A DNA stretch of 64,000 bases, from NCBI GenBank assembly GCA_037379345.1, contig CM074512.1, positions 67,167,597 through 67,231,596 of the forward strand, read 5' to 3'. The stretch is from Perna viridis. Its lineage: Eukaryota. Positions 41,401-58,471 of this stretch are shown piece by piece (positions within the stretch are counted from its first letter, which is position 1; every line of letters begins with the position of its first letter). Position numbers and translations under genes: made by a program. The notes below the pieces were generated by a model, which worked only from the letters and a program-made list of their open reading frames with translations, was not told the DNA's origin and made no database searches.

Positions 41401-44400
41401 GGCTTTCATCTGAAACAGAATTAAATCAATCCAAGTTACTTTGATGCTTACATGAGACTGATGTAAAATGATGAATACAAACGTTCCAATGATTTCTAAG
41501 AGTTGTGTCCCTTACCCTAGGTCTACCTCCTTAATTTCAACTTACAAATTCTGTTGTCATTAATTAAAGAATGCTGCTGAATTTAACTTCTTCATAAGAG
41601 TATATAATAAGATCAAGGCAGAAACATAACACCAAAAAATCAGCTCAGCATCTCCAATTATTTTCTAAACAGTAGGAAAGTGCAATGAAAAATTCTTTAA
41701 GATAATACCTGTCATAGCCATTCACTAGTCACTATAAGGGCATAAAAAAGCATAAGCAAAGGCAATGGTCACCTGCATTAATATGCCATTTTAAGGACCA
41801 ATCATAATTACAAGGGAACTAGAAACCCTTTGCTTAGGTCTCACTAACCACTTCGGGGTCAAATGGCCACCCCCCTATGTAGTTGGGGTTTAACGTCCGA
41901 GCAAAATGTACCAAAAACACACTGAACCTAGACATATGCATTGTAAGTGCATTATTTGTGTGTATTATGATTAAAAGTAGTCAAAATAAAGCTGAAAATG
42001 TGTACTTTAAATTCATATATGTAATTAACTACAAAAGTGTATGAATATTGTTTACATGTGTGAGTAATTTGCCTCCATGCAATCAGTTAGCAGAACAGGT
42101 AAAAATGTGGATTTTCAGTATTATTTATTCAAGTAAATTTTGTGAAGAATTTCTACTATCATCGTACCATTAGCATAATGATTTTGGAAGCCTTATTTTC
42201 CAAGCTTCGCAACGGTCTGCAACTTTAAGATGTCATTTGTCCTGGGAATTCACAGTGAGACTTTGAAAATTACTTTTTTAACATGTAAAGTAATGGAAAC
42301 GTTAGAAGTGGTTAGTGAGACCAAAAATTAAATTATGGCATATTTCAGAGAAATGCATAATTTGAGGAAAATTGCCTTTCCTGGTCGTTATTTCCATTTT
42401 CCCATAAAATCAGTATAGTGATATTGGTAATCTGGCTATATTTTAAGAGGTGCATTGCGCAAGGCATTTTAAAAAACAACATAGCAACAAGAATTTTATC
42501 AGTAACAGTGACTCATAACTTGACGTCATCCATGAAATATACAACGTCACTGCTTGGGATATTCAAAGTACTCAAATAATCACGCAGTAATGAAATAGGT
42601 ATGATATAAATTGTTGAAATCTGTTTTTTTTTTCATAATGATAAATGATATTTACTATTACAACTTCTTGAATTATCATAGGTATCAATTTGGTGTGACA
42701 AGTTAGTTAAAATTATAATTTTTTAGTAATTTAGGGAAAATATCACTGTGGGGCATGATATAAAAATGACCATTTCTTTGTAGTCCTATGTCTGATTTTG
42801 ATAGTTTTGGTCATATTAGACTCACAATACCACAAGCTTTCATAAAATGTAAAAAAAGAAAAACATAAAAACTAATAAAATGTTTTTAAGGTCTCACTAA
42901 CCACTTCCGGGTCAAATGGCCACCCCTCTATGTAGTACCAAAAACACACTGAACATAGACATATGCATTGTAAGTGCATTAATTGTGTGTATTATGATTA
43001 AAAGTAGTCAAAATAAAGCTGAGAATGTGTACTTTAAAATCATATATGTAATTAACTACAAAAGTGTATGAATATTGTTTACATGTGTGAGTAATTTGCC
43101 TCCATGCAATCAGTTAGCAGAACAGGCAAAAATGTGGATTTTCAGTATTATTTATTCAAGTAAATTTTGTGAAGAATTTCTACTATCATCGTACCATTAG
43201 CATAATGATTTTGGAAGCCTTATTTTCCAAGCTTCGCAACGGTCTGCCACTTTAAGATGTCATTTGTCCTGGGAATTCACGGAGAGACTTTGAAAATTAC
43301 TTTTTTAACATGTAAAGTAATGGAAACTTTAGAAGTGGTTAGTGAGACTTTAGGAGCACCATCTCTTGTACATTACTTCCTTTAATTTGTAAGACAGGGT
43401 TCCAGGGTTAAGACTTTCCAATCTTACTCTATGGGAAACTTACTCTAGAAATGGTTTTCCTTGGTGTTCTTGGTAAAATTGGAAAGCTTCATTCCTTGTG
43501 AGGTGGCACATCTTTAACTGTGTGACCATAAAACCTCTCTGGTAGATAACATCAAGTATCTGACCCATCTTGGCAGTAGCATCAGGTTTAATCATACCAA
43601 GAGTCCTGTATTTACAAATGAAAAAAAGTTGAGTTGTTATATTTACTTATGAACCATAGTAAAAGAATTGTTTTTAAGATTCCAACTGAAACTTACCAGA
43701 ACCTGTTAAGAAGGATTCAAATACTATGAGATAAAGAAATATCTAACAGTAATAGTACTTTTAGTTATATTCCCAAAACTATTTTATTTTTCCATTATTG
43801 TGAAAAGTAAAATAAAAACATCATCCTTATATTAAGTTTAAGAGATTTAACTGCAACTATATGGCAGAGCTACAGAACAGTATGATATTTGCATAGACAA
43901 AAAACCAGTGTATGATGATTTGCCCATACTGGTATACTCCTAGTAAAATAAAATTCTGGGAATAATTTTGTAAACCTGTTTTAAGAGACATTTCATTAAT
44001 TGCCATTTCAAGGGAATATATTGTCTCATTTTTACAAAATAATCTGGGTGGAGAACACACTGGTACATGTACAATTACAGATAAACAGGCCATTTGAACA
44101 TAAATCACTGAAAAAACTTCAGACAAAAAGTCATTTTCATTCTCTCAATAACATTAATGTAACAAACCAACACTGTCACAAGCTAAAGACAGAAAATAAG
44201 TTTCAAATTATACATACATGTATAACACAGAAGAAAATACAAAATAGCAATGCCATGGCATCTATACAAAAGAACAATTAATTTAGTCTAACTCCATGTG
44301 TATAAAAATTTAACACTGTAGAATTAGAACTTCTTTATAAACTAAATTGACTAAAACTTTACCTCTCTTTCTTGTTGGAAAGTTTCGACCGAGTGAAATC

Positions 44401-47037
44401 ATCCCCATAATCAACAAACTTGAGCTGTCGAGACAGAATATTAACTGTGCTGCCTATGTACATATCTTCTAGTTTAATTTGATCAATCACTTTTGTCCTC
44501 TTTAAAAATATTCTGTGATTTTTAATATCAAACTGAAAAAAGAAAGTAAACAATGGTAACATAACAGACTAGTATCCCCAAAAAAATCATAACAGACAGG
44601 CAGTGTACACAATAGGTAAACTTTAGGTTGCACTGTACAAATGGGATATAGGTGCACTGTTTCGTACACAAAACTGACACGGTCTAATTTTGTAAAACTT
44701 AAAAATAAAAGGTGAAACTTGGTGGAAATATTGATTGTGTATAGTAGAGCAATCATACATAAATAGATGCTATACTTGTGAAGGTAAAGGGGTGTAAAAC
44801 ACGCGATTTAAGCTATGTGGAAAGATTCAGGTCCTCACTGGATTAGATTCTCTTCCCTGCAGCAACAGGCTGTTTTTCAAAAATGCAAAATTTCGCACGA
44901 ATTTTAAGAATTAAAATCATGAACAAATGAGCAGAAAAAGGTACATTTTTTTTATTTGTTTTTTTACAATTATACCATGCAAACTTACTTTTTCTGGCAG
45001 TTTTTAAGTGTCTGATATTTTAGGAAACCTGTTTTTTTGACAATTAATTTTGGGAGGGCACCCAAAATTTGTTATGAAAACTGATGCATATTTTTATTAT
45101 GTTACCATGGCTACAGTTTTTCATAACAAAATAGAAAAGAATATCTATATTTTTTAAGGATCTCCATAATGTAAGATTTTGAAAAATATATACATTTTAC
45201 AGGAAAAAAATGGATTTACTTGTTTAAGTGTCTTAATATACTGGTAGATTTATTTCCATAAATTGTCATAAAGTTATCTGCAGTGACCTACCTATATAGT
45301 GGAACCTTATTTTTAATTAAAGACAAAAATAATTATAGTTTACAAATGCAGTTAAATGTATTTAGTTAATCAGAATTTAAAAACACAGGTGACTCTTAAA
45401 GGTAAGTGTTGATGATATATGAGGGACTGGAATGGAGCAAATTGCACTAAAAAAAACATTTGACTTCATTGATAATGTACCGCTATATTGTTATATTACT
45501 GATGCTAGACCAACAGGAATATGCCAGACTTTATACAACACACCTTATGTATCTGTGTTAAAAGTTAAAATGATCACTTCCTTCCTGTATTGTCTGTCAT
45601 TTCAAAGAGAATGATTAAGGTATAATAAACTTTTTTTAAAATGTTTTATGTGTATTTACATATATAAGACAGTGCTGATGCTCTATTCCATAATTGTTAA
45701 TAATATGGCTTACCATTTCTGCTGTTCCATCTTTGACATAGTACATAAACTGATATCTACGAATGAATGCTGCATGAGGGTCATACCACTCTGCGATGAA
45801 ACAATAGCGATCCTCTTCCTGAAATTAAATGCCTTAAGAATGATAATTATTTTTGATAATTTAAAAAATAGTTGTATATATAACCAAGCATCACATGCGA
45901 GGCTAACGATAGACATCCCATCAAACCTGGAATAGGAATCAGACAGGCCTGCCAAAATGGGTCAGGAAAGTGAATTTAAAGTAAAAGTAGCCTTTAAATT
46001 CATTTAAAATTAAAATATGCAATTCAAAATCAAAGGCAAAATGAAAAAGAATTACATATGTATTTACAGTATTTAGATCCGGTATGCTGAATTAATCTTT
46101 TTAAAAAAATGCACAATGAATTACGTATCCTATTTCATTCCTTTCAGCTTCGTTTTGTATCAATTCCCTTTTTTCAATGATTTTACAAACGTAAGAAAAT
46201 ATATATGTGCAATGCTCGAATGTACATTGTAGGCTGTTGCCTAACTCATTTCACTTCATACAAAGAAATGATTTCTCCCTAGCTAACAGATGAAAATATT
46301 CATATGAGTAATCAAAACAAATTCAATTAAAAGAGTCTCACAGAAAATTAGTTAAAATTCTCCTGATCATATGTGTTTATATGGAAACAGCAAGACTAAA
46401 CAGATCGAGCAGGATATTGAAAACCTGCATGGCAGTTACTAGACTTTCCTGAATTTTCCTTCAGATGAAAAATTAATACAGATGTCACAGTTTTTAAATT
46501 GCATGTCCCTTAGATGATAGAAAGTCATTTAGAGCAAATTCTTGGGTCAGTTGGTGAAAAATGTCAAGTATGAATGCTTGAATAAAATGTGGACAATTAA
46601 GGTACACTAAAATACAATTGTATGTCTTCTCTATCAACTCATTTGTGCCAGTTATATTATTTCTCAATATTTATGCATATACAGTTTGTATTATGAATTG
46701 ATGTTAATTATTCTCTTTTAATGCTCCTATTCCTATACGTTTTCTTTAATAAACTAATTTGAATTATTTATAGGCTATATATAACACTAAGAATGTTATC
46801 GATAAAAAGTTATAATAGGCAGATTTGAAGGAAATTACTTCTGTAATGAAAATGGCAAGCTTTACTGCTTTACAAGTAACTGGCTTTGCCTTTCCTTGTT
46901 TCCCTCCATTCAAAACCTCTCTATAACTAGTATCAGTGGGTAAAAGAGCTTGATTGTTTATATCGGTTTACATATACATTACAACTGGCACAAAAAATAA
47001 CCAATTTTTGTTTTTAAAATGTAGTTCTTACCCCCAT
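38434..47037 (-). CDS. NME7: Nucleoside diphosphate kinase 7 (DM10 domain + two NDPK domains), 9 exons, 376 aa
   Basis: complement join(47037-47032,45818-45714,44532-44363,43605-43444,41257-41103,40811-40656,40454-40219,39297-39190,38466-38434), 1131 nt, phases consistent. RYCFIAEWYDPHA (DM10), TLGMIKPDA, NACHGSDS, CCVIKPHAV, NGVHCTDLPEDGLLEVEYFFKILDR*. Confidence 0.96.
41837..42322 (+). mobile_element. MITE family A copy carrying a 26-bp insertion
   Basis: TIRs ggtctcactaaccacttc and gaagtggttagtgagacc. Extra gttggggtttaacgtccgagcaaaat at 41882-41907. Confidence 0.9.
42890..43349 (+). mobile_element. MITE family A copy
   Basis: Full-length with both TIRs, in NME7 intron 4. Confidence 0.9.
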
Positions 47038-47193: not shown

Positions 47194-49577
47194 AAGATTG
47201 TTTTGGTACGTTTACTATTCTGAGTTTTTCCTCAAGATATTCAACAGTTATTTTTACCAATCTGGCCTGTGTAACTTTTTACATGCAACATATCTTACTC
47301 GTCTTTTACACCACTACCAATTGTAGTCTGGTAGGGAACAAATTCCCAAATTTCTATATAGATTATAGTCCGCGATGGACGTGAACTACACTACAGTAAC
47401 TGTTATGGCTAAAAGGTTCCTTGAGTGTGACTGTCTTATTTATTATAGAGTATACTAGTTATACTGAATATGATGAAGGTGAAACCTTTTGACGCTCCCG
47501 AAAAGGCATTAATTAAAAACAACTTTGATAATTTTTGTCAGCTATTATTTGATATTTTATAGTACTTATAATTATAAGTTGTAACCTTCAAGTAGGGTAA
47601 ATTTTGTAATAATATATATTTGTCCCAAAACATTATACTAATTGACATGGTTTGATATGTCTATTGGCTGAAATGTTGGGCATTCATAAGGAATTATTGG
47701 TTGTCATGGTCTGAAATGTCTTTGGGGCGAATTGTTCAGCACTGGTTATGGTTCTTATAATTTGCGAAACTTACTGAAAGATTTCTTTTATTGCATATAG
47801 TTTCACATCATTCTGTTTCATTTTGTATAGTTTAATTATGTTATTATGACGATTTAATTCATCTTATCGAATCAATTCGTTTCAACTTTTTTTTTTTTAT
47901 CAATTATTTTCATTTCGTTTTGGTTTTGCAATTTTTATGACCCGAGAATTATGGGTAATATTGATTACAGAATTTTCTTGAACATCTAGGCGCCATACTG
48001 CAGACTATAAGGCCAACCCTATCTTGGAAAAGCTATGATTCGATTTGTATTTAAATATCGAAACTAGCAAATACGAAGGGAGTGTATATGAAATAAGTTG
48101 ATGTCGCAAATGCTGAGTTAGTTAAAATGATTTTAGGATTTGTCTTAGAGGAATGAAGTTATTTGTACCAATGTTACATTTGACTTTAAATTATGTGAGA
48201 ACACGATGGCAAGGTGGCTTAGTGTAACTCAAGGAACAGGACTTGTGATCAGGAGGTCAGAGGTTTCACCAATTTTCCAGCCTGAAATATCAGGCTTTTC
48301 TCCTCACAGAAACCTGGTTAGCAGGTGAGAAGCATTTAAATAGCCAGATGGGTGATAATTTCATCTGTCTTCAAAATTTTTAAATGTTGACTTGTACAAG
48401 GTACATGAATGTTATTCACAATGCTACACATGTAAGTAAAATGTCCCATTATTTTTTATGTTATTGAAAATGCACTGATACGTTGTTATATGGCTGATTT
48501 TTCAACCAGCAGGAACATGCGAGACTTCCCGTAACACATGCATGATGCAGATTTGTCAAAATGCCTCCGACAACAATTAAAGCAAGGTCTGATAGAAAGT
48601 TCTACCTGTTAAAAAGACTGTATTGTCAAATTAATTGTGGAGTAGAATTTAATCTTTAGAAAATGATTGGATGTTGAGTGGTAGATCCAATCAGGCTTCA
48701 TTTTCTAATTGTCAAACCCTGATCAGCTGATTGCTCCTCGGAAGTTATTTACCGGTACCTGTCATAAAACGTACCCATACCTGTTTATACAGCAATTAAC
48801 ACCTTTTGTCAGATTAATGACTCTTATAATTAAAGAAATGAGATTGAAACGCAAATTAGAGGTTTGATTTCGGAGTTTTTAGGTGATTTTGACAAAATCA
48901 GGTTTTGTGTCAAATTTGACCTAAAAATTGTGTTGGGTAAACAGCAAAAATGGCGGCGTGGTTTCGAGAGGGCTAAAATTTCAACAGGGGCACATTTTTG
49001 CAACCAGAAAGGGCATTTGGCATGTTGGCAAGGGGCATGGCGTCCTGAAAAAAAGGGCATGCTACTTTGCTTTAGATTTAACTCTAGTCTAACTTGCTGT
49101 CTGGCTGGTTGTTTGCACAGGAGTTTGGTCCAAAATTAATGGATCAGTTAAACATACCGAAGTTACAAACATATATTTGTTCACCTAGATGGTGATTTTT
49201 ACTGTTACTCCTGATCTGAATGTATACTGGAAACCAGAAATTTGTATTGTGCATATTGATATTATGCTACTTTATCCCTTAAGCATTTTCTCCCATAAAA
49301 TTTCAGTTGTGATTTTTTTGGATAAAATAACAAATTTGGCATCATTGAGAATTGCAAGGCATTAAACTTTATTAAATAATGAAATAAAAGTGTATTATCA
49401 GATACATGTAAATAAGATCAACAGGGTAACAATTACCTTATTATCAACCTTGTATCTTTGGGGCGAAATAATGACTTTTCTGATGATTAGGAAGAGGATC
49501 AGTTTGACTGTGAGGAAAAATAATTGCTCCTTTTGGAAAGATATGCTGCAGATGAGTAATCTGATAATGCATTACAT

Positions 49578-50048
49578 TGTCGCAGGACGGCCTACCTGCA
49601 TTTTAGTAGGTAGTGAGATTTAAATAGGCAGTTAATTGACTTCACCAAAGGATTAATTCTTTAGCCGAATTGGTTTGTCACTGGCTTGTAACTAAGCGGT
49701 CTAGGGTTCGATCCTCAGTGGCGAAGTATAATTTTTTGAGTCAAATCAAAATCATGCTCTCCTGTTACATTTGGCGCCCAACTAAAAAACCCATAGGGTT
49801 TGGTTTGCTAATGAGCTAGTGTTAGAATCGTTCGTGGTACGAAGACTCTAAAGGTGGGGGAAATGTGGCAGGACGGCCTACCTGCGTTGTAGTAGGTAGT
49901 GAGATTTAAATAGCAGTTATTTGACTTGGCTGAAGGATTAATTCTTTAGCTGAATCAGTTTGTCGCTGACTTGTCACTGAGAGGTCTAGGGTTCGATCCT
50001 TGGTGGCATAGTATAATTTTGTGAGTCAAATCATGCTCTCCTGTTACA
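49578..50048 (+). mobile_element. TRIM (miniature LTR retrotransposon) with tRNA-derived Pol III promoter in each LTR (Helenus/TRIMp3-like)
   Basis: LTRs 49578-49769 and 49864-50048 (TG...CA). 4-bp TSD acat (49574-49577, 50049-50052). PBS tggcgcccaac 49772-49782 (tRNA-Lys 3' end). PPT aaaggtgggggaaa 49850-49863. A box tagccgaattgg and B box ggttcgatcc in the LTRs. Confidence 0.93.
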
Positions 50049-50557
50049 ACATCTAGAATTTTTAATTATAAATAGTATAAATGTATATTAAATAAAATTA
50101 CATGAGTTGTAATTAGTTATAAAAGGGCATGTCCAGGATTTAATTTATTTGGCGTTTTCATATCAACAGGCTCATGTAAATGTGCAATTTCCATCCCCAT
50201 TCCCATGGTATAGAGCTACATTGTAACAATTTACTGTTACAGATACTGTTGCAATCATGATATGAGAAGTATGTTTTATCTCAACACCAAATTTAATTAT
50301 AACTGGGAAGAAAGGTAAAACATTAGTTTTATAACAAAATAAAACTTTTTGAAGACTTAATCAGTGATAAGTATTACATGTAGTTATATAGTAAAAATCA
50401 TAGAAAAAAGTGGATCCAGTCAGAATTTGATGGGTCCTACCAATTGTCATTGTTGGTAGGACCTATTTTCCGGCCAACATGAAAAAGATTTCTACAACTC
50501 TAATGATGTGAATCTGCTTCAAAAGTCCAAACAATCACATCAGTCTTCACGGTTAAC

Positions 50558-53695: not shown

Positions 53696-56600
53696 ATGGC
53701 AACTAGTATTCCACCATCTGCCAGAGTGTTAACACCTAGTAAAAGTGAAATACAGATATCCCATGATTCCACATCAAGTTTGAAATCTAAAGGGAGACAA
53801 CTACCTAAAGCACCTTCAACATCTGAAGAAGTACCAGTAACTAAAGGAACAATATTAGTTAGGCAACCATTGCCAAAGTATAGCTTCCAAACTTCAAAGA
53901 AAATTAAAAAATCAGAAAAATTAAACAATGACTCAAAGAAAAGTGATTGCCCGGACAATGCTCAGTTACCCGTAGGGACGGTGAAACCGGTAAGCAAGGT
54001 TGAACCTAGCATTAACCATAATGGAATATTAAAGGCTGATATGAAAACACCAACTGAGGCACCAAAGTTAGAAGTTGTTCTTAGAAACCCTTCTCCACTA
54101 GATTGGCCTGGTTCAGAGGGTGAGGTCAAAAGATTAAAAGATGAAGTTTTGAGGTTGAAAGGTGAATTGGATGTTCAGGTCAAGGTAAGGAGCTTTTATC
54201 CTTGATTTTGCTGTTCGATATTGATATTTAGGTGATTTTGCAATGATTGTTAAATCTAACTAACTCCCAATTATAGGTACTTTTATGACAATTATAAAAA
54301 AAAATCATTGGTATAATGCTTACACTTGACTATAGATCTGTTAAAAGAAGTTGCTTGAATTAAAATCAAGGTTTGTTTATAGGGCTAGTATTGGTATTTT
54401 TTAACTTTGAACTATTAAATGCAATTTATTTATAATGCATTTTTTAAAACTGTCAGGTTGCAAATACAAGTTCATGAAACAAATGGATATATTAGTACAG
54501 GTACATGTATTAGCCTGAAAATACAATTATATAACTTTATGACTGTATTATTTTAACTTTTTTAAGTGCCTATCTAGTTGAATGTGTTTGTGTTGTTTTT
54601 TAGGTTAATTCTGAGTTGAAGAAATTATTAGTAGCTTCAGTTGGAGATGATTTACACTCTAGAGTTGAAAGGCTTGCCAGGTAAGTATGATTATATGATC
54701 AGTAATTGGGATAAAAATTTAGAGAATGGGCAAAAGAACTAATTTTATTGGAAAAGTTTCTGCTGGAATGTGATTAACTGCAGCAATATCACCTCTCATC
54801 TCAATCACTTTTTGAGTAAAGGACATTTTGTTATTAGTTTTTATAAACCATTTATTATGATAGATCAAGGCACACTAATTAAACAGTCAATTAAATCAGA
54901 AATACATGTACATATTAGATGTATTAAAAATTTAAATATGATGTGTAGAAAATTGTCAACATTTGCTGATACTCCAATGTTCTCCCTAAGATTTACAGAA
55001 AGCATCCTGGTAACCCCTGAATTTCATTTTGGCATCTTGCATCTGCATTTTGTAAAAATTATAGCATCACATTTGTATTGGACCTTATGGAAGTTTTTTG
55101 TGATAGCATCCTGGTAAAAAAATATAGCATCAGGGCAGTGTGATGCTATATGGCTCTTCAGAAATCACTGACTGGGACATGAAGTTACATACCGGTACAT
55201 ACCGGTTTGTTCATTTAGATGCAGCTGTGTCTTTTTAAAAGACTTGGTGGCATCTATTCAGAATTTGTGCATCTAGTACATTCAGTAAATGTAAATTAGT
55301 ATGTACTTACAGTTTTTTGAGTCCTTAATACTTTCATTTGAAATATAATTTTGGAATAAATATATACATGTAATAATGGAGTACATGTATATTGTAAAAG
55401 CTCAACTGTTTCATCACAATATTATTCAGTGTACATGTATATAACAAGAAAGATGTGTATGGACATTAATGGAACTTATTGTTCTATAATTATAGAGACA
55501 GAGCAGAATTGACACAAGAGTTAGGATTTACAACTCAACAGAGATCTGAAGACTATGAGAATTTGGATGCTGTCTCTATACAAGCTGATATGTGGAGGAG
55601 TAAATACCTAGCAAGCAGGTATTTGTCATTACAATATATAGATAGAAATATTATACATCATTGAGCGTGAGGATGATACATTGGAATCACCTTGTCAATT
55701 GTTCTGTCTGTCTGTCGGAATTTATTTGGAATTTTCTATTCTACCAATGGATGGGTTGATTTCAAATTTGATATATGGCTTAATATACATGTAATCAATT
55801 TTGGTTGCTGTCTGATTATGACTTTCTGTTTCATGGAACCTATCCATTTTTCTGTGTATGGAATGATAGTTTTCTTGCAAAAATCTTAACTCCCACTTGT
55901 GGGATTGACTTCAAAAACTGTATGTGGCTTTTAATATATAGATGGATTGATGTTGTAAGCAATTTTGGTTGCTGTCAGATATCAGCTTCCTGTAATAGGG
56001 GGTATATCACAACAATGTGTGCCACTTCATGTTTCTTCAACCAATCAGGGCCAAGTTTTATAAAAAATCTAAGATGAATTCATCAAACCCTCATATTTTG
56101 TTATAAGAAAAAATTTGAACTTTGTGAATAGAGGGAAGAATAGGTAACAGTATGAATGATGATTGGTCTCCAGCAATAACAAGAAATTGCTGAATATACA
56201 TGTTGATGGTTGTACCAATATTTTCCAGAACCCATACAACAATAAAAAACACTGCTACTTACAAGTGTTAAGCTTTGATTTGTACAATGTATATTGTCTC
56301 TTATACTTAGCTTTGATGGACCCTTTATATTGTTAGTTAAGCTGTTTCAATCCTTTTTGATTTGACAAGTGATACATCGATGTTAAGGAAATGTTGATTA
56401 GACAATTCCCAGTGGTTGGGAAGGTCATTTTCAGGATTTTTCAAAGATATTTACAATCTGAAGGGGCCATCTGTTAAGAAACCATATAGTTTTATTATAG
56501 ATGATGGAGGCCATTTCTAGCCAGAAAGGGCAAATGGCCCATGGCTCCTTGCCTTCCAACTCCTGAATTCCCCTCCAACCATTTACAAAAATAAATAAAC

Positions 56601-58471
56601 AAAAAAAAACCAAAACAGTGCTGTCTAAATTTCAACAATACTGTTGAACTAAACAGAAAGGTTTTATCAATCACTATAAAAAAAATTTCATGAAGCCAAC
56701 TAAACTTTTTAAAAAAATGCCATGTTTAATCTTAGATTTGGTTACAAAACATAATGAAAACCAATAATTTCTTTATATTGTGTCATACTTTCAGAGTAAT
56801 GAGTGATGAGTTAGCTAGTGCTAAATCTTTCTTTGCTGTCCAGTACCAGGAATCCCAGAATGCATTAGAACAATTACTGGATGAAAGGCATGAACTTCGA
56901 ACAAACTTGGTGGAGTGCAATAGGTAACTACATGTACATGTATGGTGTCAAGATGTTTTTGATAAACATTATATAAAGATTTTATTTACTGATTATTTGA
57001 TTTAGGTTCAGAACTAACGCATAAATATCAGCAGTATTGTTATACAAGTTATAGAAAACATCTTTTAGTTTGGAAATCACCTTCTTTGGTACTCCGTCTT
57101 AATCTTTGAACTTTGGATTAATATTTCAAAGCATTTTAACTTTTATTTAATTAAATAGCATTTTCAGATTGAAAAAAAAATTAACGGTATTGACGTTTCA
57201 GATGCTTACAACAAATCAGAGCAGCCTTTGACCCTTTGAACTCTCAAAGAGTTATACCCCAGAATGGTAGTAATAACCTTGACCTTGCCACAAATAGTCA
57301 CAGTCTGGCTGAAAGTATCAAATATAGGTTGTTGCCTAGTAACATAACACCTGACATTACTGTTGCTATGGATGCCAGATTTGAGGATGCTTTTACCCAT
57401 GCAGAGGCACATGCTAATGAGGTGAGATAGAATTCAAAAGAGAAAATGATACAGAATGAAACTATGAAATAAACATGGATTGTTGTGTCATAATGAAAAG
57501 AGGAGAACTGAAACTTCATTATGGAGCTCACTTCTAGAAATTATAACCTCATTGCATTTTTTTTCTTGTCAAATTTGTGGCTATGTGAAAAAAAAAATAA
57601 CAAACAAAAAAAAAACATGGGTGATAAATTTATGTCAAGGTTGTATTTATGGCTGTCAGGTTAATGAAAAAAATTAGCATATCTTTTATTACAGTCAAAC
57701 TTCACTTGCTTGAACTCAGAGAGCTGGAACTCACTGGATTATTCAGACAAAATTCAAAGTAAAAAAATATTTTCCAATATAGTGAATATAAATATCCTTA
57801 GACTTGTGAAACTTTTCGAACTCTTGCACTGACTTGTTGGTCTGCATGGTAATATATCTTAAAAATAACCCTCGCTAGCATGAACTTGTCAGCCATTTAA
57901 TGATTAGGTAATTACAGGTTATTTTTTTTTTTGTTATCCCTAATCAGGTAGCTAACATAGTACTGATTGCAGTTCGAGAGTGCTCCATAGTGGGTATGAT
58001 AAAACCGTAAAAAAATTAAATGAAAATGAAATTATTGACCCAAGAACTGGACTTCTGAAAGTTCTTAAAAGTAAACAAAGCATTTTTAATGTCTACAAAT
58101 CAGCTTAAACTTCTTGAAGTGAATGAAAAATCTCCAGAAACTAAAAAACATAGTTAAGTAAGCAATTTTTAACAATAAAGTTTATTAACTTCAATTTCTC
58201 AAACTCCGGATAACTCAAGCACACATTTGAATGGTCCCTTGGAGTTCCAGCTACCAAGGTTTGACTGTATTTCCGTTTGTTATTTTCACTTGGTCTTTCA
58301 TTTTAGTTACTGTCACGCAGAGTAACATCGAATGACATAAGGACTCACCTACCAACAGCTGTATGCAACACAGGATCTTCAGTAGCGGCCAGATACCATC
58401 CTAAAACTAAGTTTGACAACCTGACCTTCAACTGCTGCCCTCATTGTAAAGGGGAGATTCATGCTCTGTAG
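53696..58471 (+). CDS. BLZF1: Golgin-45 (basic leucine zipper nuclear factor 1), 6 coding exons, 400 aa
   Basis: join(53696-54184,54604-54680,55496-55618,56795-56923,57202-57421,58307-58471), 1203 nt. VQVKVNSELKKLLVASVGDDL, SIQADMWRSKYLASRVMSDEL and C-terminal RYHPKTKFDNLTFNCCPHCKGEIHAL* match golgin-45. An upstream in-frame exon MDVNYTT (47375-47395) may extend the N-terminus. Confidence 0.94.
57692..58267. mobile_element. Tc1/mariner-type (pogo/Tigger-like) MITE
   Basis: TA|cagtcaaac ... gtttgactg|TA, with further gaactc/gagttc subterminal match. Confidence 0.75.

What the first reader, a model, noticed from the sequence alone, without database searches (positions are those of the whole stretch)
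49574..50052. Miniature LTR retrotransposon whose LTRs contain a tRNA-derived Pol III promoter
Seen: a complete 471-bp element with 192/185-bp TG..CA LTRs, a 4-bp TSD, a tRNA-Lys PBS, a PPT and only 94 bp of internal sequence. Each LTR contains a tRNA-like cassette (tctttagccgaattggt..cactggcttgtaac..ggtc..gggttcgatcctca) with A box 49662-49673, B box 49705-49714, a TGT anticodon-like loop suggesting tRNA-Thr, and a TATA-like tttaaata ~40 nt upstream. Established: Cassandra TRIMs carry 5S sequence in their LTRs, and tRNA-bearing TRIMs (Helenus, with 4-bp TSDs in animals) have been described recently. So this is a rare and little-studied class rather than a wholly new one. Inference: a SINE/LTR hybrid transcribed by Pol III and packaged by a Gypsy-type partner. 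The LTRs differ at many positions, so the insertion is not recent.
Basis: partly seen in the sequence, partly recalled or inferred. Interest (0 to 1): 0.7.

Follow-up and report, generated by a model that had tools for sequence, protein, structure and literature searches.

The report
Helenus mini-retrotransposon with Gypsy hybrid copies
This is an old copy of a tiny, gene-less jumping element whose end repeats carry a broken tRNA gene that likely serves as its promoter, a kind described in 2024 as Helenus; hybrid copies elsewhere in the genome point to the larger Gypsy element it probably rode on.

Summary
49578-50048 is a 471-bp element with TG..CA LTRs (192 and 185 bp), ACAT target duplication, an 11-nt tRNA-Lys-CTT primer site and a purine tract. 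Each LTR carries a non-folding cassette with A and B boxes, closest to this genome's tRNA-Thr-TGT. It is one of roughly 100 copies. It is a Helenus TRIM (Kojima 2024): by eye its LTR is colinear with the published mussel families Helenus-1/1B_MoPh and 1_LimFor. So it is a new member of a known kind.

Two additions. (1) Seven loci are hybrids with one decayed Gypsy family that shares the LTR end and primer site; 4 of 54 sampled internal domains carry its LTR, none that of 8 other Lys-primed references. It is the likely partner. (2) A T4 run follows the cassette, so a Pol III genome-length RNA would have to read through it once; this copy's 5' LTR has T6 and is likely dead.

Pol III transcription is not shown: two stranded RNA-seq runs gave mostly antisense passenger reads. 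The scan noted Helenus, once with Copia hybrids, on other genomes before.

The parts
49574..49577 (.). Target-site duplication ACAT, left copy
   Evidence: exact 4-bp duplications in 21 of 30 family loci
49578..49769 (+). 5' LTR, 192 bp, TG..CA; 6 bp longer than the usual 186 bp through a local duplication near its 3' end
49619..49626 (+). TATA-like TTTAAATA, 43 nt upstream of the A box; could serve Pol III (TFIIIB) or Pol II
   Evidence: 56 of 64 LTRs; 34 of 40 complete 3' LTRs of the unbiased set; a TATA-like word at the same place in MoPh, LimFor and 3_MyGa families by eye
49655..49727 (+). tRNA-derived cassette, closest to tRNA-Thr-TGT; does not fold as a tRNA (acceptor 3/7, D 3/4, anticodon 3/5, T 4/5 pairs)
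   Evidence: no ARAGORN or Rfam tRNA call
49662..49673 (+). A box of the 5' LTR
   Evidence: sequence; TAG...AR core in 58 of 64 LTRs
49705..49714 (+). B box GGTTCGATCC of the 5' LTR, 45 nt from the A box (46 in the Thr-TGT gene)
   Evidence: GTTCRA in 48 of 64 LTRs, CpG-decayed GGTTTGA in 10
49732..49737 (+). T6 run behind the cassette (T4 in the family); predicted strong Pol III stop upstream of the primer site
   Evidence: exact T4 in 54 of 64 LTRs, T6 in 2 of 64; effect inferred
49772..49782 (+). Primer-binding site, 11 nt complementary to the 3' end (with CCA) of this genome's tRNA-Lys-CTT; 9 nt for its Lys-TTT
   Evidence: same site in Kojima Fig. S2C
49822..49849 (+). Predicted hairpin just upstream of the purine tract; inverted-repeat arms also seen by eye in the mussel Helenus internals
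   Evidence: fold only, no shuffle control
49850..49863 (+). Polypurine tract
49864..50048 (+). 3' LTR, 185 bp; A box 49947-49958 (one G lost), B box 49990-49999, T4 run 50017-50020
50049..50052 (.). Target-site duplication ACAT, right copy

Best explanation
This is a decayed copy of a Helenus TRIM, a gene-less LTR retrotransposon of about 466 bp with a broken tRNA-Thr-like cassette in each LTR, that was likely transcribed by RNA polymerase III and likely copied in trans by one Gypsy family with which it forms hybrid copies. Shown: the anatomy, about 100 dispersed copies with 4-bp duplications, the tRNA-Lys-CTT primer site, A/B boxes in most copies, and seven hybrid loci joined at the shared LTR end and primer site. 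Inferred: (1) Pol III starts just upstream of the A box in the 5' LTR, sometimes reads through the weak T4 behind the cassette and stops at the same T4 in the 3' LTR, so the cassette itself is the repeated R region (about 85 nt) of an RNA of about 370 nt; (2) this RNA is packaged with the Gypsy RNA, primed by tRNA-Lys-CTT and integrated by the Gypsy integrase, which recognises the shared LTR end; (3) strand transfer between the two DNAs at the common primer site makes the hybrids; (4) this copy is dead, since its 5' T4 became T6. Odds: Helenus membership 0.95, this Gypsy as partner 0.7, Pol III origin of the template RNA 0.65.
For: Anatomy and copies; estimates of about 97 internal domains and 365 LTRs from exact-word counts of 54 and 211 (lower bounds). 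Kinship: the 15-mer CGTTGTAGTAGGTAG occurs in the Helenus supplement only in Helenus-1/1B_MoPh LTRs, and a 21-mer of primer site plus tail in 3 entries including 1_MyCo; same LTR length (186 bp against 186/188). Promoter: boxes kept in the family and across mussel families, correct spacing, AATAAA in 0 of 64 LTRs. Partner: the 1.03-kb-LTR family has RT (E 5e-20) and integrase (E 1e-4) remnants in Gypsy order, 4-bp duplications at 8 of 13 LTRs with both ends found, the same primer site, and 11 identical terminal bases, against at most 6 for the other Lys-CTT-primed loci. Its copies are about as diverged as Helenus copies (7.2% and 9.2%). 4 of 54 internal domains picked by an internal word carry its LTR upstream, 45 a Helenus LTR, 5 none recognised, 0 any of 8 other references. 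The seven hybrids do not form a clade. Two have exact flanking duplications (L159 GTAA, L160 GTTG).
Against: No RNA evidence for Pol III: in two stranded runs 121 and 145 reads lay on the element, 89% and 81% of what was laid ran on into unlike flanks, antisense depth exceeded sense about 3.7:1 and 2.3:1, none was 99% alike to this copy, and no start or end piled up. These libraries are poorly suited to short Pol III RNAs. Within the genome the boxes are no better kept than the rest of the LTR (0.967 and 0.969 against 0.957-0.979 at non-CpG columns). T4 terminated human Pol III very efficiently in vitro (PMC3141230), which strains the read-through step. The TATA-like word could serve Pol II. 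The one hybrid with unlike outer LTRs and both ends intact (L128) matches at only 3 of 4 flank bases, which 13% of random pairs do; three hybrids have lost an end. No intact member of the Gypsy family was seen among 40 scored hits. Identity to published families was judged by eye and by shared words, not by alignment.
Confidence: 0.68

Rival explanations
1. It is a Helenus by structure but its template RNA is made by Pol II from the TATA-like box or by read-through from host genes; the tRNA cassette is a relic or an enhancer.
For: TTTAAATA is the best-kept word of the LTR (0.979); a T4 lies upstream of the primer site; RNA-seq shows only passenger reads; no Helenus has experimental Pol III support.
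Against: AATAAA in 0 of 64 LTRs and 1 of 40; A and B boxes and their spacing persist across mussel families while the tRNA stems decayed.
Confidence: 0.2
2. The hybrids come from DNA recombination after insertion, through the roughly 24 nt shared at the LTR end and primer site. They say nothing on co-packaging; the helper is another Lys-CTT-primed Gypsy, or several.
For: All family junctions lie at the only shared homology. L159 and L161 have like outer LTRs, so their flanks could predate uptake of the middle unit. At least five other Lys-CTT-primed groups exist, two with 4-bp duplications (L060, L063), and L063 shares the first 8 bases with Helenus.
Against: Exchange between unlinked loci should leave unlike flanks (PMC1950507), yet all 4 hybrids with both ends match at 3 or 4 of 4 bases; 24 nt is short for ectopic recombination (own knowledge); 4 of 54 is a high rate for a family of modest copy number; L160, with an inverted LTR at one end and an exact duplication, looks like a faulty cDNA integrated whole.
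Confidence: 0.25
3. The cassette makes a working tRNA, so the family adds to the host's tRNA-Thr pool.
For: TGT triplet in the anticodon position in 64 of 64 LTRs; Kojima lists seven bivalve Helenus that can fold as tRNA-Thr.
Against: Stems are broken, position 37 is C in 52 of 64, ARAGORN finds none in 30 loci, Rfam none in 20 loci; 83 of 86 pattern matches lie in a true Thr-TGT gene array.
Confidence: 0.02

Closest known systems
Helenus-1_MoPh, 1B_MoPh (Modiolus philippinarum) and Helenus-1_LimFor (Limnoperna fortunei); then 1_MyCo, 1/1B/3_MyGa. Kojima 2024, PMC10886601 (whole main text read; supplement parts 1, 6, 9, 10, 11 of 11 and two word searches)
   Same: Size class (LTR 176-188 bp, whole 444-491 bp), 4-bp duplication, Lys-CTT primer site with an A-rich tail, purine tract, order of LTR words from start to end, T-run behind the cassette in the MoPh, MyCo and 1/1B_MyGa families.
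   Different: Not identical to any of the bivalve entries read; internal domain 94 bp; this paper proposes animal partners only from primer sites and reports no hybrids.
Cassandra TRIM (PMC7215508, passages; the 2008 paper was not held and is known here only through Kojima's account)
   Same: Small-RNA-derived Pol III promoter in both LTRs, tandem LTR-internal arrays, no coding capacity.
   Different: 5S-derived, plants, transcription validated, autonomous partner still unknown.
biv-TRIM (PMC6934838, passages)
   Same: Bivalve TRIM with solo repeats and tandem arrays.
   Different: No canonical primer site; no Pol III promoter discussed; no partner found.
Complex LTR insertions by template switching (PMC1950507, part 1 of 2 read); chimeric TRIMs of sugar beet (PMC13570524, passages)
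   Same: Multi-LTR or mixed-LTR elements with flanking duplications, explained by switching between two templates.
   Different: Those join copies of one family or two TRIMs; here a TRIM is joined to a coding Gypsy with an otherwise unrelated LTR.

Membership tests
Helenus (TRIMp3) | Non-coding LTR element under about 1 kb with two LTRs | tested here: met
   471 bp, 94-bp internal domain; no ORF of 110 aa or more overlaps it
Helenus (TRIMp3) | tRNA-derived sequence in the LTRs with box A (TRGCY, YGG) and box B (GGTTC) | tested here: met
   best of 10 genomic tRNA types tested is Thr-TGT (median of 64 LTRs 60.5; next Thr-CGT 53, Lys-TTT 50)
Helenus (TRIMp3) | Primer site complementary to a tRNA 3' end, and a purine tract | tested here: met
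   11 nt to tRNA-Lys-CTT; exact in 16 of 34 internal domains
Helenus (TRIMp3) | 4-bp target duplication (animal families) | tested here: met
   exact 21 of 30, 3 of 4 bases in 3 more, exact 5 bp in 1
Helenus (TRIMp3) | Sequence kinship with a described family | tested here: met
   shared exact words and colinearity by eye; no computed alignment
Helenus (TRIMp3) | Transcription by Pol III (proposed, not shown for any Helenus) | tested here: inconclusive
   passenger reads only, unsuitable libraries
Helenus (TRIMp3) | Mobilised by a Gypsy element (proposed for animal families) | tested here: inconclusive
   hybrids, shared end and primer site support one family; no functional test
Cassandra / Ajax | 5S rRNA-derived sequence in the LTR | tested here: not met
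   no 5S match in Rfam scans; cassette aligns to tRNA
biv-TRIM | No canonical primer site; conserved central internal segment | tested here: not met
   canonical Lys site present; the segment quoted is absent from the internal domain by eye
Functional tRNA gene | Cloverleaf with paired acceptor and anticodon stems | tested here: not met

The most novel reading that the evidence does not exclude
The hybrids are fossils of shared virus-like particles: this Pol III-driven mini-element rode in one specific Gypsy's particle, mimicked only its last 11 bases and primer site, and swapped DNA strands with it at the primer site often enough that about 7% of its internal domains carry the helper's LTR. 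One leaky T4 signal would serve as both pass-through and stop, making the tRNA relic the R region. Hybrids would then be a general way to name the unknown helpers of Helenus and Cassandra.
Probability: 0.4. Interest if true: 0.62.

Novelty: new member of a known kind. Interest (0 to 1): 0.42.

Why it matters
The element class is published, so the copy itself is ordinary. What remains open in print is which elements mobilise Pol III-type TRIMs and how an RNA long enough to be copied is made. Kojima matched animal Helenus to Gypsy only through primer sites, and Cassandra's helper is unknown. The hybrids give a concrete candidate pair and a cheap screening rule. The T4 behind the cassette gives a sharp prediction for transcript ends. 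The family also shows how such repeats scatter several hundred A/B-box sites over a genome.

Tried and rejected
tRNA gene finders: nothing in the window, in 30 family loci (ARAGORN) or in 20 loci (Rfam, E up to 10). Run search: no RNA holder listed; raw reads of two same-species runs were laid instead. No empty-site joint was among the joints shown for the one assembly-type run (58 not shown), so polymorphism of this insertion is open. Summed contig depth was not used as a copy number. First Thr-TGT pattern found nothing because it was too strict (corrected). A pattern for a Helenus LTR followed by the Gypsy's longer T spacer found nothing, although L159 has that kind of junction. The young Gypsy family L060/L067 (LTRs 98.9% alike, 4-bp duplication, same primer site) was the first partner candidate; it was set aside because it is much younger, shares only 5 terminal bases and gave no hybrids in 54. 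Extra conservation of the boxes within the genome: not found. Literature: 'Helenus' + 'retrotransposon' listed 5 papers, of which only PMC10886601 describes the class; searches for hybrids or co-packaging of non-autonomous elements gave no Helenus-Gypsy hybrid report, but subscription journals and Repbase were not searchable. The 2008 Cassandra paper was not held. No earlier scan finding matched by sequence.

Full report
Observation. The element is as described. TG at 49578 and CA at 50048 bound 471 bp flanked by ACAT on both sides. The LTRs are 192 and 185 bp with 164 matches and 21 mismatches; the internal domain is 94 bp, opens with TTTGGCGCCCAAC and closes with a purine tract. The window's genome (723 Mb, 46 contigs) gave 858 candidates; 40 were scored and 44 places listed, the other 43 at 85-90% identity over nearly the full length, on 13 contigs. 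Of 30 fetched loci, 21 have an exact 4-bp duplication (chance 0.6%) and 3 are tandem arrays of 3-4 LTRs. These 30 are the best-scoring copies, so they lean to well-kept ones. Exact words count 211 LTRs and 54 internal domains; scaled by their frequency in the fetched set this gives about 365 and 97, as lower bounds, so solo or broken LTRs are common.

Age. LTR pairs differ by a median of 7.9% (5.8% outside CpG columns); this copy differs by 11.4% (6.7%). CpG columns are far less conserved than others (0.82 against 0.96), which points to decay under DNA methylation (inference). The tree is star-like, as after one old burst.

The cassette. Of 10 tRNA types taken from this genome, Thr-TGT fits best: score 70 for the 5' LTR, median 60.5 over 64 LTRs, shuffles 27 +/- 4; the U3 part scores 24. 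Not all tRNA types were tested. A-to-B spacing is 45 nt (46 in the gene). The stems are broken, and neither ARAGORN nor Rfam calls a tRNA. In 64 LTRs the A-box core is kept in 58, GTTCRA in 48 (10 more show the CpG-decayed form), TTTAAATA in 56, AATAAA in none. In 40 complete 3' LTRs of the set picked by an internal word the counts are 30, 27 (+4), 34 and 1. The primer site pairs over 11 nt with the genome's tRNA-Lys-CTT plus CCA.

Family. Kojima 2024 (PMC10886601; whole main text; supplement parts 1, 6, 9, 10, 11) defines Helenus as TRIMs with tRNA-derived LTR sequence, with 4-bp duplications in animals, and lists 51 families from pteriomorph bivalves. A 15-mer of this element's LTR occurs in the supplement only in Helenus-1 and 1B_MoPh; an 11-mer of the LTR end in 4 mytilid entries; a 21-mer of the primer region in 3 entries. 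By eye the MoPh and LimFor LTRs carry the same words in the same order from TG to CA. The host is therefore probably a mytilid mussel (inference). I did not compute an alignment with the published sequences.

Partner. A 13-nt Lys-CTT primer pattern gave 28 places, falling into several LTR groups. One, L059, ends in the same 11 bases as the Helenus LTR; other groups share at most 6 (L035 and L043 are Helenus itself). It has a 1.03-kb LTR with no other similarity to Helenus, many solo LTRs with 4-bp duplications (8 of 13 with both ends found among 25 loci), and broken RT, RNase H and integrase frames in Gypsy order. Its LTRs differ by 7.2% pairwise over the last 186 bp, Helenus LTRs by 9.2%.

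Hybrids. A junction search returned 7 mixed loci among 40 scored candidates of 314: L128, L158, L162, L163 (Gypsy LTR, Helenus internal, Helenus LTR), L160 (the same behind an inverted Helenus LTR), L161 (Gypsy LTR, Helenus unit, short internal piece, diverged Gypsy LTR) and L159 (Helenus LTR, deleted Gypsy internal, part of a Gypsy LTR, Helenus unit). In all seven the Gypsy LTR end is joined to the Helenus internal domain at the primer site; each internal domain is followed by its own LTR. An unbiased sample, all 54 internal domains matching an internal word, has a Helenus LTR upstream in 45, this Gypsy LTR in 4, nothing recognised in 5, and none of 8 other references; all 54 have a Helenus LTR downstream. 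Reverse transcription makes both LTRs alike, so unlike-LTR elements cannot copy themselves as such (established); accordingly the hybrids' Helenus parts do not cluster (11.8% among themselves, nearest neighbours always plain copies). Four hybrids keep both ends: exact duplications at L159 and L160, 3 of 4 bases at L128 and L161; 3 of 4 occurs in 13% of random pairs. Flanking duplications are the criterion of PMC1950507 for origin during reverse transcription. The simplest route is transfer of the Gypsy plus-strand LTR-plus-primer-site DNA onto a Helenus minus strand in one particle (inference). Recombination through the same short homology after insertion is not excluded.

Transcription. A T run lies about 20 nt behind the B box, upstream of the primer site: exactly T4 in 54 of 64 LTRs, and T3-T5 or none in the bivalve entries read by eye, whereas most tRNA genes printed are followed by T5-T8. 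A Pol III RNA that can be reverse-transcribed must pass this run in the 5' LTR; stopping at it in the 3' LTR makes the cassette the R region. Human data show leaky termination in cells but efficient T4 termination in vitro (PMC3141230, passages), so this step is a hypothesis. In the window's copy the 5' run is T6. Two RNA-seq runs are stranded, as spliced reads of neighbouring genes show. On the element 121 and 145 reads were laid at 85% likeness from 19% and 24% of the runs; most ran on into other flanks, antisense dominated, none matched this copy at 99%, and no ends piled up. This fits passive transcription of copies inside host RNAs and neither shows nor excludes a short Pol III RNA.

Setting. 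The copy lies between a spliced minus-strand gene (joints 43604-47031) and a spliced plus-strand gene (joints 54182-58305); no listed joint spans it.

Verdict. A real, ordinary-class element: a new family in the mussel Helenus lineage. Its value lies in the hybrids, which name a likely helper, and in a testable terminator model. An earlier scan note reports Helenus-Copia hybrids in a fungus; I saw it after my own analysis and did not check it. Repbase and subscription papers could not be seen and may already hold this family.

Noticed in passing
L135, L136, L142, L151, L153, L156, L157: 7 of 13 Gypsy LTRs with both ends share the same 5' flank (TTGCAC) and nearly the same 3' flank: either a preferred target or a solo LTR spread inside another repeat.
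   Followed up: no
L160; L217; L170: Faulty Helenus products: an inverted LTR at the 5' end (L160, with exact duplication; L217 by eye), and a 14-bp palindrome of the LTR end in place of the 5' LTR (L170).
   Followed up: partly
L060:402-8044 and L067: Young Gypsy family with Lys-CTT primer site, LTRs 98.9% alike, AATA duplication and a 1460-aa protease-RT-RNase H-integrase frame; L060 lacks the PNMA-like gag frame seen in L067.
   Followed up: partly
L061:241-620: A more diverged Helenus-like LTR whose first 43 bp are repeated in tandem; possibly an older sister family.
   Followed up: no
G000 C2:28.56-28.68 Mb, C6:28.99-29.01 Mb, C8:20.32-20.36 Mb, C9:4.45-4.53 Mb, C2:45.08-45.13 Mb: Long tandem arrays of tRNA genes (Thr-TGT 83 matches; Lys-TTT/Met; Thr-CGT/Gly; Lys-CTT/Arg; 126 Lys-CTT-type ends in all), with single anticodon variants such as TCA in an Arg body.
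   Followed up: no
window:42000-43180: A repeat with about 200-fold RNA depth on both strands and sharp ends, far above the Helenus family.
   Followed up: no
window:13087-14162: RGG-rich reading frames that recall the N-terminus of a PL10/DDX3 helicase (recalled; no Pfam hit for 13725-14159).
   Followed up: no
window:25980-26708: Tandem repeat of about 45 bp, open in three frames.
   Followed up: no
window:752-1789: Two ORFs that recall a Mutator-type transposase remnant (recalled; not scanned).
   Followed up: no
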